From Acidimicrobiia bacterium (lineage in GTDB: Bacteria > Actinomycetota > Acidimicrobiia > Spongiisociales > CAZKJJ01): a stretch of DNA of 26,621 nucleotides. Below are positions 6,001 to 15,000 of this stretch, in pieces; the first letter of the stretch is position 1; each line of letters opens with the position of its first letter. Position numbers: made by a program. The DNA is taken from assembly GCA_046759765.1 (NCBI GenBank), contig JBHICV010000020.1, positions 1-26,621 on the forward strand. The letters are read 5' to 3'.

Positions 6001-9000
6001 TTGAGCCCTCGAGCTCCTGGTCGAAGTCAAAGAAGAACCTGAAGCCCGGCCCGCCAGGACCGAAACCGAACAGGCCTCCTCGGCCTTCGGCCAGGGCCCG
6101 CATCGCGCTCTCGATCGCCGACCGGACCCCGGCCGGAAGGTCATCGTCGCTCCCGACCACGCTGTCGACCATGGCTTCGACGACCTCGTCGGCATCGGCT
6201 CCTTCGGCTTCGGCAATCTCCAGGATGCTGAGGCCGTCTGCGAGTTCGTTGAGAAGCTGGCGGAGCGGAATCCCAATCGTTTCCGCGGCCGCCTCCAGCG
6301 GCGAGCCGAAAAGACCTTGCCCGAACAGACTACGCAGGTCGTTGAACCCCTCACCCTCGAAAAAGCCTTCGGGCAGCCCCCCGACATCTGGGAGCTCGAA
6401 CTCGAAGTCCTCGGGGAGCTCGGACCGCAAGTCCTCCAACCGTTCTCTCAGATCGCCGGGCAGGTCTTCGAGAGCTTCTCTCAAATCCTCCACCTCGGCG
6501 GGGGTCATGACTCCGGACTCCACCAGCCCGTCGAGGATTTCGTTGATGACGTCCGTCACGCTCTCCGGGAAAGCCGCTTCGCCATCTTCGAGCGGCGATT
6601 CCTCGAAGTCGAGTGGCTCCTCGATCTCCTCCTCGGCCGTGGTGGCCCCGGACGACGAGACGATCGCAGCTATCGCCACGCCGCCAACCACCACTACCAG
6701 CGCGCTCAAAGCGCCAATCAGAATCGGTCGCACAGTGCCCCCATGTCCAGAGATTCTCTTCGTTCAACCTAAGCGGTGGGTGAGGCGTGGCTGAGAACTT
6801 CCTAAGAAAACGGCCGTAATGCAGCTGAGGTTCCGCGTGTAGGCTCACACCACTCGATTTGGGAGGAAGCCATGGCGGACACGCCGGAAGAAACGATCAA
6901 GGCAGCCGCGGCCGCCTACATCGCCGGCCAGGGAGACAGGCTGTCCGCGGAATTGTCCGGGGACGTCCGCGTGCTGGGCAGCCACCGACCCGATGTCTGG
7001 GAGGGGGCGGACGCCGCTCTCGAAGGGTTGGCGCCCGAATTGCGAGTTCACGAGGCCGGAGAGGGCATCAGCGGATCGCTGGTGAACTTCGACGAGTACC
7101 CGGTCGAGGTGGTCCCGGTCGGGGACACCATCGCCTACTCATCCAGGACAGGAGACCTCGATATAGGTGGCGAGCACCACGATGTGGCGTCGTGGACGAC
7201 TGTCCTGCGGCTAGAGAAGGACTGGAAGATCGTCCACTCCCACTTCTCGATCCACCACTAGCCGTCCAGGGCGGCGGCCCGGTCGAGGTCGTGGAGGCTG
7301 CCGACCTCCTCGAACAGCTTCCTGGCCTCGCTGAGGTGGGTCTGACGCTCGGCGCTGTCGGCCGGCAGCGTTCGGGCAAGCTCGAGGTGAAGCAGTCCTG
7401 CGTCCCACGGAAAGCCGCTGCCCTCGGCCAGGCCGAGGGCCTTCCGGAATGTGCGCTGGGCCTTGGAGGTCCGGCCCTGTAGCTGTTCCATCCGCCCTTT
7501 GAATAGCCGGTGCTTCGGCCGGGCAAAGGGCAGCACCAAGGCGAAGCTCCGCATTGTCTTGAGGGCCTTCTTGGTGAGCTTGGCGAGCTCTTTGGCGCTC
7601 TGAGAGGTCGGGTCACCTTCCAACGCCCACAACTCGAGCAGTGTGTCGAGCAGCCCGGCGAATCCGGCCAGGTAGATGAATATCGGCGTGCTGTCGATGG
7701 CTTCCAGAGCCAGCTCGGCGCTCGACCGCGCTTCGGCCGTCTGGCCGGCTCTCAAGTAAACCTGCGACCGCGTCCCATAGATGATGGGCACAGTGAGGGG
7801 GTCTACGTCATCGAGGATTCCCGAGGCAGTCGCGGCCATCGCCTCGGCATCGTTGAGACGATTGAAAGCCAGCAGGACCGGGATAACGGACGATGTCGCC
7901 CAACCCTCATGTTCGCGGTTGGCACGCGCGCGAGCAGAAGTCAGGAGCTGGTTGTAATCGCCGAGAGCCTCCTCGAGCTGCCCGGAGGAGTAGCTGCCGA
8001 AGCCGCGGATGGCGAGCGCGATGCCGGCTGAGTATTTGTCGCCCAACCGGTAGCATCGCTCGAGACCCTCGGTGACGATCTCGCGTGCCCGCTCCCACTC
8101 GTTGAATGTCAGCGCCAGCACGCTCTCCGACAGGGCGACGGCGATCAGATGGCCGGGACCCATCTCATGCAAGTCCAGAACGTAGGGCGTCTGGACGAAC
8201 CCCCGATCGACCTCGAACTCCTCCGCCAGCCGGGCTCGCCGGAAGTACCTTTCGGCCAGGCGCCGGAGGCGCATGGTTCCGACTAGATAGCCGAAGCTGC
8301 TGTATGCCAGTCCGGCTACCAATGGCTCGCCGGCCTTCTCCCCCAGGTTGATGGCGAGCAGGTTGAGGACGGGGAATCCCAAGAGGTTGCCGGTGAAGTA
8401 GTAGATCTCCCCGATCAGGGCCGCGACCCGTGATGCCTGACCCAGGCGGGCCTTCTCTTCGTCTGCTTCCGGAACGCGTACCGCAGCCGGTAGCAGGATG
8501 TGGAACGTCTGCTTGACGGCCTCCCAGGCGAGCCGTCCGATTCTCCTGAGCCGCGTGGTAGAGACGTGGACGCCTACCAGATCCAAAGCTCGATAAAGGC
8601 TCTTCTCGGCCTCTTCCAACTCCCCCAGCGCTTCGTGCGCTTGCCCTATCTCCACCTGCCACTGACTCCTCCGGAGGGGAGCCACTTCGAGAAACTGGTC
8701 AGGGTGTTGGCTCACCAGCTCCAGGGACCGGGAGTGGGCCTCGATGGCTTCCCGGTTGGCGCCCTTGCGGAGCGAGCTCGCCCCGGACTTCTCCAGGTAG
8801 GTCAGGGCCTTTTGACGATCCTCGGCTTGGTCCCAGTGGTAAGCCAATAGGGCATACGGCGGCTCATGTGGCTCTTCGCGGCGGGACTCGATGAATTCTC
8901 CAACGTTGCGGTGGATTCGTCTCCGCTGATCGAACACCAGCAGGTCGTAGGCCGCGTCCCGAATCAGAGTGTGTTTGAAGTCGTACGATCCCAGAGAGGA

Positions 9001-12000: not shown

Positions 12001-15000
12001 TCCCGGGCCAGGCCGTTCTTTCGATCAAGGGGCGTTGGGACTGGGCCGATCGGCTCGCCGAGCTCGTGTGGCATCTGACCAAGGCGACCCAGCTGTTCGA
12101 CGACTTCGTCGATGCGCCTGACGATCTAGCCGCCGGGAACTACACGTGGATGGTCAGGAGGCTGGGCGGGCTGGAGGGAGAGGCGGCTCTTCATCGGGGC
12201 ATGATTGCTTCTGGCGACGAGGTGGTAGCGGAGGCCGGTCGAGAGCTCGGTGAGGCGCTGGGCGTGGCCGGCGACCTCGGCATCGGCGAGATCTTCGACT
12301 GGGTGGAAGCCCGTAAGCGGGTGATGAAGCGGGCGTCGGAGCGAATGTACGAGGCCTTGTTCGAGAACCTGGGGAGTGATGACTGACGGCCGCGACTCAT
12401 GCACAGGTCGCGTATGCTTCTCGCCATCCTGAGCGAGAGGGGAGACGAGCATGGAGAAGATTCCTCCGGAGTTGATCGGACGGGCTGTCCAGGACCCCGA
12501 ATTCCGTCGCCGTTTGCTGAGCGACCCCGAAGCTGCGGTGGCCGATACCGGCTACGAGCTCGATCAGGATCAGATCGACGCCCTGAAGGAACTTGATCCG
12601 GAGGCCATCGATCGGGCGATCGAGGCCATGGTGGGAGACCTCGATCCTGCCAAGTGGGGCTGAGCGGCACCACGCTTCCCGGCACCGAAAAGTTCTACGA
12701 CCGGTGGACTGAGCTATATCTGCGCGGGTTCGGGCCCGTTCTCCAGGCAGGGATCCTCAGGACCGGAGACCCCCCGCGGGAGGATCCCGAACAGTCCGTT
12801 CTGGCCTTAGCGGAGCGTGCCGGGCTGCGGGACGGGGACCGAATCGTCGACGCCGGCTGCGGAGTGGCCGGGCCGGCGATCGTGATCGCGCTGGGTTACC
12901 CGAAAACTGTCACCGACGGAGTAACGATCTCGAAGCAGCAATACGCCATCGCTCAGCGTGAGATTTCTGCGGCTGGCCTGACCGACCGGGTTCGAGTCCA
13001 CTTGGCCGACTACCAGAACCTCCCCTTCGGGGCGGCGGAGTTCGATCAGGCTCTGTTCATGGAGAGCACCTGCTATGCAACCGACCTCCCGGCGGCCTAT
13101 GCCGAGGCCTTCCGGGTTCTGCGGCCCGGGGGCCGGCTGTACGTAAAGGACGTTTTCTGTCGCGCCGGTCAGCTGAAGGACCACGAAGCAGTTCAGATGA
13201 AGGCGTTCGATCAACTGTGGGGTTGCGTGCGATCAAAGACGATGGAGGAGTCGGTCGAGGCAATGGTGCAGGCGGGCTTCGATGTGACACAGTCCGCCCC
13301 GATGTCGGACATCGGTACGAGCCGTCTACTCGGATCGATGTTTCAGCTCGATGGCATCGGTCTCCGCACAAGTGAATTGGGCGAAGCCTTCTTACGGAAA
13401 GACCTCATTCCGCCGATCGAGTTTGGTGAGATCCGGGCGGTGAAGTAAGCCGCGTGACTGATCCTGGCGGCACCTCTGCCACGGGCGGCCGGGTATCGTC
13501 AGAAGCCTCGATGATCTGCAACAACTGTGGCGCTGAGAACCGGGAAGGACGCAAGTTCTGCAAAGACTGCGGGACAGCGCTGGGCTTGGTCTGTCCGGGC
13601 TGCGGGACTACGAACGATCCCGGCGACAGCTTTTGCGGAGAATGCGGCGAGAGCCTCATGGCGGACGCCTCCGCAGCCGTGGCGGTGCCATCAGAGGCGC
13701 AAGCCGCCGCGCCCGCGACGGAGAAGCGGTTCGTTTCGGTCCTTTTTGCCGATCTAGTCGGCTACACGACACTGTCCGAGGATCGCGACTCTGAAGAGAT
13801 CCGGGACATGCTCACCAACTACTTCGAGCGTGCACAGGAGATCATCGAGCGCTTCGGCGGCGCGGTGGACAAGTTCATCGGCGATGCGGTGATGGGCGTG
13901 TGGGGAGCGACGGTGGTCCAGGAGGACGACGCTGAGCGGGCCGTCCGAGCCGCCCTGGAGCTGGTGGACATGGTCGACGCCCTCGGCGAGGAGCTCGACC
14001 TTCCCGATCTCATGCTCCGTGCGGGCGTGAACTCCGGCGCCACTGCGGTCGGGCCGGGCGGAAATGAGCAGGGCCTCGTCGTCGGTGACCTCGTCAACGT
14101 CGCCTCCCGGCTCCAATCCATCGCCGAGCCCCGCACCGTATTCGTGGGCGAGGCCACCGAGTCGGTAACCAATCGATCGATCGATTATCGGTACCAAGGT
14201 GAGCGGAGCGTCAAGGGCAAGAGCGAAACGGTTCCCGCCTGGCGCGCCCTCCGCGTCGCGTCGATGGTCGGTGGTCGCGACACGGACGACATCCGACAGC
14301 CCCCCTTTGTTGGTCGTGAGCGAGAGATGCGTCTGATCAAAGACGCCCTCTCGGGGGTCGAGTCCGAAGGGCGAGCTCGCCTCGTCTCGATCATCGGTGA
14401 AGCAGGCATCGGCAAGTCGCGCCTCGCTGACGAGTTCAAGAACCACGTCGACGGCTTCACCCATGATGTCTACTGGCATCAGGGCCGCTCGCCTTCATAC
14501 GCGGAAGGGCTGACCTTCTGGGCTCTGGGCGAGATGGTCCGGCAGCGAGCTGGGATCCTCGAAACCGAGGAGCCGGCACGGGCCATGATCCGACTCCGCA
14601 CCACCGTCGCCGACTTCGTTCCCTCCGAGGACGATCGCCAGTGGATCGAGCCCAAGCTCGCCGGCCTGCTCGGCCTGGCCGAGATGCCGCCGGGCACCAG
14701 ATCCGAGCTCTTCTCGGCCCTCCGTGCCTTCTTCCAGAACATCGCCGAGCGTGGTCCCACCGTTCTCGTCTTCGAAGACCTGCACTGGGCCGACGATGGC
14801 CTGCTCGAATTCATCACCGAGCTGGTGGAGCGATCGACACGGTCACCTCTGTTCGTCGTAACCCTGGCCAGATCTGACTTGTTGGAACGCCAACCCGGCT
14901 GGGGCTCTCAACACCGCAACTCCCTGGGGCTGCGGTTGCCCTCACTTTCCGAATCGGAGATGACCCGCCTGCTCAGCGAGTATCTGCCGGGGTTGCCCGA

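What a model noticed while it worked through the whole genome (the two positions that open the first line are those of the whole stretch)
7258..13448. ComQX/PalQX-like peptide-prenylation cassette: NHLP precursor ending in K-W-G, cryptic isoprenoid-synthase-fold enzyme, [...]
g00739 (310 aa, no Pfam/NCBIfam/Swiss-Prot match) is predicted to be a tryptophan prenyltransferase of the ComQ/PalQ kind acting on the 70-aa NHLP-type peptide g00740 encoded 65 nt downstream, whose C-terminus ...VGDLDPAKWG carries an invariant Lys-Trp just before the last residue. A class I SAM methyltransferase (g00741, nearest to olefin and indole-alkaloid methyltransferases) follows, and a 1373-aa soluble-adenylyl-cyclase-like STAND protein (g00738) is transcribed divergently. 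The four genes form a fixed cassette in Acidimicrobiia, other Actinomycetota and Acidobacteriota MAGs: a new, non-Firmicute branch of Trp-prenylated signalling/RiPP peptides.
Evidence so far: g00739: 0 Pfam families at E<=0.01; 95 homologue clusters, none with a functional name; alignment of 27 shows invariant D101 D102 D105 and D217 D220 D224, two DDxxD-type motifs; AF2 model pLDDT 88, pTM 0.87; Foldseek PDB: 75 hits E<=1e-3, the top ones all trans-polyprenyl diphosphate synthases (3aqb, 5h9d, 5ze6, 4jyx; prob 1.00, TM 0.63-0.70, 12-14% identity). g00740: Pfam Frankia_peptide, NCBIfam 'Os1348 family NHLP clan protein' (tables). In 11 of 11 loci fetched from species genomes with the g00739 family, tblastn finds g00738-, g00740- and g00741-like genes in the same order and spacing (the peptide in two pieces in 1 locus); this genome's peptide and the 10 intact ones align without gap [...]
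(Added by a program. Inside this text positions count along the whole contig: contig position 1 is position 1 of the stretch shown here. "Call 12" and the like, gene names such as g00115 and contig names such as C1 are that model's own, and its searches are not shown. The text may have been shortened before it was handed on; [...] marks where a part breaks off. The agent that wrote the report below was given it as the finding of a first reader that could run no searches.)

Follow-up and report, generated by a model that had tools for sequence, protein, structure and literature searches.

The report
Cyclase-linked peptide prenylation gene cluster
These genes from an uncultured actinobacterium probably attach a methylated isoprenoid lipid to the tail of a small protein and use it to control a cAMP-making enzyme inside the cell; the enzyme is a distant relative of a known tryptophan-prenylating enzyme, but its relatives show that tryptophan is not always the target.

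Summary
The 310-aa enzyme has the trans-prenyltransferase fold, lacks the chain-elongation loop, and is a sequence homologue of Paenibacillus proteins carrying PalQ's residue numbering. A complex model docks the 70-aa NHLP peptide on it (0.78 versus best control 0.01). Cyclase, enzyme, peptide and methyltransferase keep their order in 11 of 11 species genomes; a fifth, SnoaL-like gene was missed. However, Trp is not invariant: 8 of 23 close peptide homologues end K-Y/F-G/A. In 14 of 16 loci the Trp codon also supplies the methyltransferase's GTG start. Fifteen sister loci keep enzyme plus peptide, and none ends in Lys-aromatic-Gly/Ala. In six of them a class II terpene cyclase stands where the methyltransferase stands here, suggesting that both act on the prenyl chain. 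Best reading: tail prenylation plus prenyl methylation, sensed by a soluble-adenylyl-cyclase-like STAND protein. Trp69 is the likeliest site here but is unproven. The 'Acidobacteriota' label is not supported. The scan noted the terpene-cyclase sister cassette before on other DNA (e1-4698117). New variant of a known kind.

The parts
6872..7261 (+). SnoaL/NTF2-like protein, 129 aa; fifth conserved gene, convergent with the cyclase (stop codons overlap). Role inferred only: lipid carrier or tailoring protein.
   Evidence: PF13474 E 6.8e-7; orthologue at 39-49% identity in 10 of 11 GTDB loci and in terpene-cyclase-type locus L021; single match in own genome
7258..11379 (-). Soluble-adenylyl-cyclase-like protein, 1373 aa from ATG 11379 (ORF extends to TTG 11382): two class III cyclase domains, STAND ATPase, TPR region
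   Evidence: Best PDB match human ADCY10, E 1.2e-33, both catalytic domains; Pfam; D44, D94, K308, N378, R382 and Walker A/B kept in 10 of 10 orthologues
11418..11423 (-). Putative -10 hexamer (TAGATT) for the cyclase gene
   Evidence: TA of the + strand CTA block is aligned in 10 of 10 intergenic sequences; read by eye, the sigma-70 scan found no full promoter
11441..11446 (+). Putative -10 hexamer (TACAGT) 7 nt before the enzyme's GTG; suggests a leaderless transcript
   Evidence: TACAGT in 9 of 10 aligned intergenic sequences, TAGAGT in the tenth; inference
11454..12386 (+). Trans-IDS-fold prenyltransferase of the PalQ/ChrP kind, 310 aa
   Evidence: AF2 pLDDT 96.5; VIA Z 22.3, rmsd 2.8, 270 aligned to a solanesyl diphosphate synthase; hhalign 97.5% to Paenibacillus P0240
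11754..11768 (+). First Asp-rich motif D101-D102-x-x-D105, with no RRG loop behind it
12090..12125 (+). Q213-x-x-D216-D217-x-x-D220...D224; Q213 and D216 align with PalQ-numbered Q197 and D200
   Evidence: PalQ residue roles from PMC10853753 and PMC13290415
12451..12663 (+). Os1348/Frankia-type NHLP peptide, 70 aa; helix 48-61 docks on the enzyme in the model
   Evidence: PF14407 50.9 bits, NF038399 71.2 bits; complex model
12652..12660 (+). C-terminal K68-W69-G70 codons; family motif is K-(W/Y/F)-(G/A)
12654..12656 (+). GTG start of the methyltransferase, formed by the last base of the Lys codon and the first two bases of the Trp codon
   Evidence: same overlap in 14 of 16 close loci
12654..13448 (+). 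Class I SAM methyltransferase, 264 aa, of the RebM/AtmM/MitM/TleD/SpnF/BezA/GPP-methyltransferase clade
   Evidence: E137 invariant in 14 of 14

Best explanation
An intracellular lipopeptide-signalling cassette. (1) The PalQ-related enzyme binds the NHLP peptide by its helix 48-61 and leads the C-terminal tail to the active site (modelled). (2) It ionises a host prenyl diphosphate at the first Asp-rich motif and transfers the chain to that tail (inferred from family and motifs). In this genome the likeliest single site is Trp69 (about 0.33 of the 0.55), but Lys68 or the terminal carboxylate are live options. (3) The methyltransferase C-methylates the prenyl chain, possibly starting a cyclisation, because it occupies the gene position that a class II terpene cyclase holds in sister cassettes (inferred). 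(4) The lipidated peptide or its clipped tail, perhaps carried by the SnoaL-like protein, binds the TPR region of the divergently transcribed soluble adenylyl cyclase and changes cAMP output (inferred from co-inheritance alone). Shown here: genes, fold, homology, gene order. Modelled: enzyme-peptide binding. Inferred: all chemistry and the signalling step.
For: Fold. No chain-elongation loop. Homology to PalQ-numbered proteins with a profile built only from the 63 close homologues: E 1.6e-10, hhalign 97.5%. A class II cyclase fusion is also a homologue (P0211, E 1.3e-8). PalQ acts on an NHLP precursor's C-terminus (PMC10853753), and all characterised trans-IDS-like peptide prenyltransferases act on Trp (PMC13290415). 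Complex model: 0.78, best control 0.01; the mark was reached by 116 of 157 solved and 2 of 215 mismatched pairs; runs agree in at least 83% of contacts, partner pLDDT at least 79; peptide residues 63-65 and 67-68 touch enzyme residues 41-58, 219 and 222. A short peptide gene follows the enzyme in 16 of 16 close loci and in 15 of 16 sister loci; the sixteenth, L029, ends at the enzyme. D216 is Asp in 16 of 16 Trp-type enzymes and 7 of 7 Paenibacillus proteins, but in only 1 of 7 sister enzymes. The third gene in six sister loci is squalene-hopene-cyclase/MstE-like. The cyclase TPR stretch 1001-1200 is 73% identical among orthologues against 20-25% to a paralogue.
Against: No chemistry is shown. 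Trp is replaced by Tyr or Phe in 8 of 23 close peptides, and the window's enzyme is sister to that subclade, with no change in Q213. The Trp codon doubles as a start codon. No side chain is shared by all tails: nine methyltransferase-type sister loci end in unrelated sequences, with Trp in the last ten residues in 1 of 9. W69 and G70 are not among the confidently placed residues of the model. Ala extensions after Trp abolish PalQ activity. The Gln before the second motif is also present in ordinary polyprenyl synthases. The D216 pattern is imperfect (L098 has Asp with a Trp-less tail) and kin are not independent. The methyltransferase's nearest solved relatives include O- and N-methyltransferases. 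The genome holds at least 8 other long cyclase-STAND proteins, so the receptor role rests on conserved adjacency.
Confidence: 0.55

Rival explanations
1. A branch of the best reading: the tail is prenylated, but not on Trp. The acceptor is Lys68 (or Arg in relatives) or the C-terminal carboxylate, and the aromatic residue is only a recognition element.
For: K68 is invariant in 15 of 15 aligned locus peptides and 23 of 23 homologues, while position 69 accepts W, Y or F. K68 is the last residue placed next to the second Asp-rich motif. Lys or Arg lies in the last six residues of 5 of 6 terpene-cyclase-type peptides, five of which have no Trp at all. The carboxylate is the only group shared by all tails.
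Against: No Lys or Arg in the last six residues of most methyltransferase-type sister tails. No paper in the library held any of five lysine-prenylation phrases. Lys may simply bind the acidic motif or mark a cleavage site.
Confidence: 0.22
2. The peptide is not the acceptor but a small activating or scaffold subunit. The enzyme prenylates a small molecule (indole, free Trp or another arene, as Ord1 does), the methyltransferase or class II cyclase finishes a meroterpenoid, and this lipid is the cyclase ligand.
For: Tails are unrelated across cassettes of identical architecture. The modelled interface is dominated by the leader helix. The peptide is more conserved (77% mean column identity) than the enzyme (56%; different sequence sets). 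Ord1 is a structural match (Z 18.5, rmsd 3.5, 258 aligned). MstE-type cyclases match the sister third genes.
Against: The K-aromatic-G/A motif is kept in the close clade even where the start-codon overlap is gone (L002, L030). PalQ, the nearest characterised sequence relative, modifies its NHLP partner. Sister locus L025 carries an M50 peptidase with a weak PqqD-like domain, and tandem precursor-like genes occur in L083, L085 and L098, as in RiPP clusters.
Confidence: 0.28
3. The enzyme is an ordinary chain-elongating prenyl diphosphate synthase or a class I terpene synthase.
For: The top structural matches are all polyprenyl diphosphate synthases, and both Asp-rich motifs are complete.
Against: An 11-residue deletion removes the RRG loop; RRG follows the first motif in 1 of 134 family members. 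No PF00348 match reaches the cut-off in the enzyme or in 117 relatives scanned. Identity to the synthases is only 9-18%. The genome has a canonical synthase elsewhere.
Confidence: 0.06
4. A strict ComQX analogue: a Trp-prenylated, exported quorum pheromone.
For: The ComX and Frankia_peptide domains are grouped as homologues (PMC12353581); Trp is penultimate in 15 of 16 close loci.
Against: Beyond the five genes, nothing recurs across the 12 close-clade loci compared, so no conserved transporter, peptidase or kinase was seen. The putative receptor has no strong hydrophobic segment (maximum 1.64). Trp is not invariant.
Confidence: 0.07

Closest known systems
PalP/PalX/PalQ of Paenibacillus alvei (PMC10853753)
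   Same: Trans-IDS-fold prenyltransferase next to an NHLP-type precursor; aligned FARM, Gln and SARM residues; measurable sequence homology to PalQ-numbered Paenibacillus proteins; predicted complex.
   Different: About 17-23% identity. PalX ends in Trp and extensions abolish activity; here Trp is penultimate and exchangeable with Tyr/Phe. Partners are a methyltransferase, a SnoaL-like protein and a soluble adenylyl cyclase instead of a histidine kinase.
ChrPC-type prenyltransferase-terpene cyclase maturases (Hubrich et al. 2024; seen only as cited in PMC13290415, paper not held)
   Same: Trans-IDS-like P domain plus a step that modifies the attached prenyl chain; a cyclase-prenyltransferase fusion is a homologue (P0211), and six sister loci have a class II cyclase gene.
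   Different: No terpene cyclase in this locus or genome; a methyltransferase stands in its place. ChrPC modifies an internal Trp, while five of the six cyclase-type sister peptides have none. The ChrPC sequence could not be compared.
Bacillus ComQXPA
   Same: Isoprenoid-synthase-fold enzyme plus small precursor with a LigA-like leader domain (PMC12353581).
   Different: ComQ lacks the second Asp-rich motif (PMC10853753), this enzyme has it. No ComX Pfam match, no invariant Trp, no ComP/ComA.
TleD, BezA and geranyl diphosphate 2-C-methyltransferase; RebM, AtmM, MitM
   Same: Same methyltransferase clade by sequence and fold; conserved Glu at the E137 position.
   Different: 20-26% identity, substrate not assignable; the His that follows this Glu in RebM, MitM and TleD is absent.
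Soluble adenylyl cyclase (ADCY10) and RiPP-associated cyclase/TPR proteins (TIGR03903, TIGR04510)
   Same: Tandem class III cyclase domains, STAND ATPase, TPR; partial TIGR03903 match.
   Different: Far below the TIGR03903 cut-off (196 of 706 bits); no peptide or lipid ligand is shown for it.

Membership tests
PalQ-type peptide Trp prenyltransferase system | Isoprenoid synthase (trans-IDS) fold | tested here: met
PalQ-type peptide Trp prenyltransferase system | Sequence homology to PalQ-family proteins | tested here: met
   P0240 carries K39, D89, D93, Q197, D200, D204 as named for PalQ (counted by hand); E 6.8e-6, 1.6e-10, hhalign 97.5%. PalQ's own sequence was not in hand.
PalQ-type peptide Trp prenyltransferase system | FARM, Gln before SARM and first SARM Asp | tested here: met
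   D101/D102/D105, Q213, D216; the Gln is not diagnostic on its own
PalQ-type peptide Trp prenyltransferase system | Adjacent NHLP precursor that binds the enzyme | tested here: met
   model 0.78 versus control 0.01, support and not proof
PalQ-type peptide Trp prenyltransferase system | Conserved Trp as the last residue | tested here: not met
   Trp is penultimate and is Tyr or Phe in 8 of 23 homologues
PalQ-type peptide Trp prenyltransferase system | Histidine kinase (PalP) in the cluster | tested here: not met
   none among 26 window ORFs scanned; nothing beyond the five genes recurs across 12 close loci
PalQ-type peptide Trp prenyltransferase system | Mg-dependent forward C3 prenylation with pyrroloindoline formation | not testable with these tools
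   needs an assay
ComQXPA | ComQ with FARM but no complete SARM | tested here: not met
   complete DDxxD at 216-220
ComQXPA | ComX-family precursor with invariant Trp | tested here: not met
   Pfam gives Frankia_peptide, not ComX; Trp variable
Chain-elongating trans-prenyl diphosphate synthases | RRG loop after FARM and KT motif; PF00348 match | tested here: not met
   loop deleted, KT read as RS; RRG in 1 of 134; 0 Pfam matches
ChrPC-type bifunctional maturases | Prenyltransferase fused or coupled to a class II terpene cyclase | tested here: not met
   no match to the sister cyclase profile in the own genome; met in sister loci
ChrPC-type bifunctional maturases | Sequence membership in the ChrPC cluster | not testable with these tools
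   paper and sequence not held
Prenyl/olefin C-methyltransferases (TleD, BezA, GPPMT) | Nearest relatives are olefin C-methyltransferases | tested here: inconclusive
   RebM, AtmM, MitM, SpnF, TleD, BezA and GPPMT are interleaved; NF041943 54.5 of 400 bits
Soluble adenylyl cyclase-like class III cyclases | Two cyclase domains with metal-binding Asp pair, adenine-selecting Lys and transition-state Asn/Arg | tested here: met
   the roles of these residues are recalled

The most novel reading that the evidence does not exclude
A widespread family of trans-IDS-fold peptide prenyltransferases that has left tryptophan: they lipidate a Lys/Arg side chain or the C-terminal carboxylate of Frankia/Os1348-type peptides, the chain is then C-methylated or cyclised by interchangeable partner enzymes, and the product is an intracellular lipopeptide ligand that switches a soluble-adenylyl-cyclase-like STAND protein.
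Probability: 0.2. Interest if true: 0.85.

Novelty: new variant of a known kind. Interest (0 to 1): 0.6.

Why it matters
All characterised peptide prenyltransferases of this fold act on Trp (PMC13290415). This family offers natural W, Y, F and aromatic-free substrate variants with matched enzymes, so one small co-expression panel can show whether the fold has other acceptors. It also predicts a methylated prenyl chain on a ribosomal peptide, and gives a concrete ligand candidate for a bacterial soluble-adenylyl-cyclase-like STAND protein. If only Trp69 is modified, it is still a PalQ-like system with new partners outside Bacillota.

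Tried and rejected
Plasmid search with sister enzyme P0114: no match. Viral-contig scan with the peptide alignment: 135 pattern matches, none confirmed. 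Cluster look-ups of 10 mid-distance relatives gave no organism names; a second look-up of 10 did not reach P. alvei PalQ. The PalQ supplement was unreadable and the ChrPC paper is not held; both bear on exact family placement. The sigma-70 scan found 0 promoters and 1 terminator-like site, at chance level. Read laying: one 203-nt identical contig at 11377-11579 in the one RNA library, which does not show transcription; DNA contigs of run X2 bridge the cyclase-enzyme and enzyme-peptide-methyltransferase junctions. The second cyclase at 13454-17011 was rejected as a member: no orthologue follows the methyltransferase, only a 31% look-alike in L006. Weak genome hits at E about 1e-4 were ordinary polyprenyl synthases (L018, L019). 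The careful tree did not finish; the quick tree was used and deep forks are open. The SnoaL-like protein had no useful PDB sequence match. Earlier-finding look-ups by sequence and by relatives were empty. Ten literature searches found no description of this cassette; the library lacks most subscription papers. Loci from two genomes marked unpublished (G623, G977) support no claim, though they are counted in the tallies.

Full report
1. Observation. The ORFs are as described: cyclase 7258-11379 (-), enzyme 11454-12386, peptide 12451-12663, methyltransferase (MT) 12654-13448. The enzyme matches no Pfam family at E<=0.01; the peptide passes the cut-offs of PF14407 and NF038399. A homologue search returned 95 proteins at 50% identity or more, none functionally named. 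All 11 loci from the GTDB scan have the four genes in the same order. A fifth gene, SnoaL-like (6872-7261), is conserved in 10 of these 11; the other contig ends inside the cyclase. Comparing ORFs of 90 aa or more in 19 loci showed no other gene recurring across the 12 close-clade loci; the clusters were inspected by position and first residues, not annotated. The enzyme family is patchy: 19 of 401 genomes of the order, and 8 of 301 of the class with the wide profile, 2 of which are ordinary synthases.

2. The enzyme. An AF2 model on 134 sequences has pLDDT 96.5 and pTM 0.93. Foldseek gave 54 matches at E<=0.001, led by trans-polyprenyl synthases. The wide alignment search gave Z 22.3 (rmsd 2.8, 270 aligned), with the prenyltransferases MoeN5 and Ord1 at Z 19.0 and 18.5. 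A family profile reaches polyprenyl synthases by sequence (E 1.2e-7), and the alignment shows an 11-residue deletion where their RRG loop sits and RS in place of KT. RRG follows the first motif in 1 of 134 members. Chain elongation is therefore unlikely. The exhaustive search found 224 relatives and listed 150. One, P0240 from Paenibacillus (E 6.8e-6), carries K39, D89, D93, Q197, D200 and D204, the residue numbers given for PalQ (counted by hand; PMC10853753). A profile of the 63 close homologues alone scores it at E 1.6e-10 and hhalign at 97.5%. Another relative is fused to a squalene-hopene-cyclase domain (P0211), the architecture that PMC13290415 describes for ChrPC.

3. Enzyme-peptide pairing. 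The complex model scored 0.78 against a best control of 0.01. The mark was reached by 116 of 157 solved and 2 of 215 mismatched pairs; these counts hold only roughly with my alignments. The runs agree in at least 83% of contacts and the partner's pLDDT is at least 79. Peptide helix 48-61 packs on enzyme helices 244-255 and 293-308, and residues 63-65 and 67-68 touch residues 41-58, 219 and 222 beside the second Asp-rich motif. W69 and G70 are not confidently placed. This supports binding but does not show it; likeness to solved NHLP-leader complexes was not excluded.

4. The Trp is not invariant. Of 16 close loci with DNA, 13 end KWG, 2 KWA and 1 KYG. Of 23 other proteins from the peptide search (24 hits among 26 candidates), 12 end KWG, 3 KWA, 6 KYG, 1 KYA and 1 KFG, and the two closest end KYG. 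These two sets may overlap and are not summed. In the quick tree the window's enzyme is sister to the Tyr/Phe group (support 94 and 92; three pairings inferred from equal contig length). There is also a confounder: in 14 of 16 loci the MT's GTG start is made of the last base of the Lys codon and the TG of the Trp codon. In 11 of those 14 it is the only ATG, GTG or TTG in frame within 75 nt before the peptide's stop and up to the MT's conserved FYD motif. The KYG locus has lost this overlap and its MT looks broken or misassembled; L002 keeps Trp without it. The protein-level motif is therefore K-aromatic-G/A.

5. Sister cassettes. Nine loci have enzyme, peptide and an MT of the same family, eight of them with the divergent cyclase (L031, L035, L081-L085, L097, L098; six are from one genus and several carry frameshifts). 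Their tails are PIPDVPTA, IDNGADLV, GWLDDPGDLV, LDDGPQLV, VLYGAEIV (three), KGRPETMA and QYGRASLA. The peptides of that genus matched my own profile only weakly (E about 1e-4 to 2e-3), and the two scanned against Pfam matched nothing. Six further loci have enzyme, peptide and, in the MT's place, a protein whose profile matches squalene-hopene cyclase (E 1.8e-11) and MstE (E 1.5e-5) (L021, L025-L028, L099). Their tails are FDDKPGVV, FAQRKAAT, FGTKSAI, GQRMAAN, KGERRAG and FGGQQALIN. Five have no Trp at all; L099's peptide was recognised by position only. A nucleotide cyclase or STAND gene is adjacent in 5 of these 6; the sixth contig is 3.4 kb. More distant actinobacterial relatives sit beside peptides ending in C-x-x-W-x-C-like tails in 3 loci read, two with a flavoprotein gene seen directly behind the enzyme, so Trp substrates probably do occur in the wider family. 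D216, which the review links to indole recognition, is Asp in 16 of 16 Trp-type enzymes, 3 of 4 Tyr/Phe-type, 7 of 7 Paenibacillus proteins and 1 of 7 sister enzymes. Two loci read later split on this: Thr in L097, Asp in L098. This leans towards Trp69 here and another acceptor elsewhere, but the rows are kin.

6. MT and cyclase. The MT falls among RebM, AtmM, MitM, SpnF, TleD, BezA and geranyl diphosphate methyltransferase at 20-26% identity, which does not assign a substrate. It keeps the Glu (E137, 14 of 14) but not the His that follows in RebM, MitM and TleD. That TleD methylates and cyclises a geranyl chain on an indole, and that MstE cyclises an attached prenyl chain, is recalled and comes from no call. 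The positional swap with a class II cyclase is the main reason to place the MT on the prenyl chain. The large protein's best solved relative is human soluble adenylyl cyclase (E 1.2e-33). Catalytic and Walker residues are kept in 10 of 10 orthologues, and TPR stretch 1001-1200 is 73% identical among orthologues but 20-25% to a paralogue. None of the four proteins has a strong hydrophobic segment (maximum 1.66). The 74-nt gap between the two start codons holds two conserved back-to-back -10-like hexamers. I recall that Pfam's text links PF14407 peptides to cyclases in Chloroflexi; a search did not confirm it.

7. Taxonomy. The phylum sample around L006's genome repeated 10 hit places of the window's own phylum sample, and a genome with L006's coordinates is listed as same order. 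The 'Acidobacteriota' label is a record title. No close-clade member outside Actinomycetota was demonstrated; the metagenome loci carry no taxon.

8. Mechanism and odds. Tail prenylation, prenyl methylation and cyclase control: 0.55, of which Trp69 about 0.33 and Lys68 or the carboxylate about 0.22. Peptide as a non-substrate subunit of a small-molecule pathway: 0.28. Exported Trp pheromone of the ComX kind: 0.07. Chain elongation: 0.06.

9. What is known. The system works like PalQ/PalX and is related to it, but fails two defining features (terminal Trp, histidine kinase), so it is filed as a variant and not as a member. Papers seen: PMC10853753, parts 1-3 of 4, covering the main text, supplement unreadable; PMC13290415, outline, section 2.4 and passages; PMC12715784, part 1 of 3; passages only of PMC8939145, PMC12353581, PMC12510300, PMC7726476 and PMC11002830; Hubrich et al. 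2024 not seen. Ten searches found no description of this cassette. The ChrPC paper's genome mining may already include the terpene-cyclase-type sisters. An earlier scan note (e1-4698117) describes such a sister cassette with a membrane cyclase.

10. Verdict. A real, conserved, uncharacterised prenylation cassette wired to a cyclase; new variant of a known kind; interest 0.6. The variability of the tail is itself the most interesting lead.

Noticed in passing
L030, L035, L081, L083-L085, L098: peptide stop to MT: In these loci the methyltransferase lies in the +1 frame, 28 nt from the peptide's stop to its FYD motif, with no ATG/GTG/TTG close by; near-cognate ACG or ATC sits at -20 (or -23), and L082 has ATG at -20. 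Either near-cognate initiation or a frameshift giving a peptide-methyltransferase fusion.
   Followed up: partly
window 13454-17011 (+) and 18504-21122 (-): Two more adenylate-cyclase/STAND/TPR genes within 8 kb; the first starts 6 nt after the methyltransferase. The genome has at least 8 long paralogues of this kind.
   Followed up: partly
G305/G981 (L011 and L035): One genome carries two versions of the cassette, one with a KWG peptide and one with a Trp-less peptide.
   Followed up: partly
L038, L039, L040, L042: Distant enzyme relatives beside Cys/Trp-ending precursor peptides (seen in L039, L040, L042) and a PF02441 flavoprotein (L038, L039, L042): a candidate prenylated, decarboxylated RiPP.
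   Followed up: partly
P0215, P0128, P0113: Fusions of the enzyme domain to a radical SAM domain (759 aa), to an unannotated domain (702 aa) and behind a primase-like fragment (442 aa).
   Followed up: no
L025:2-859 and 3804-4976: A protein with a weak Frankia_peptide-like N-terminus and an M50 peptidase with a weak PqqD-like domain upstream of a terpene-cyclase-type cassette.
   Followed up: no
L083, L085, L098: Tandem precursor-like genes between enzyme and methyltransferase.
   Followed up: no
window 21287-22007 and 23571-23981: Phd/YefM antitoxin followed by a PIN-domain gene, and a second PIN-domain gene.
   Followed up: no
window 525-4377: ZnuA and ABC-3 metal-uptake genes with ABC ATPase matches on both strands of overlapping ORFs.
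   Followed up: no
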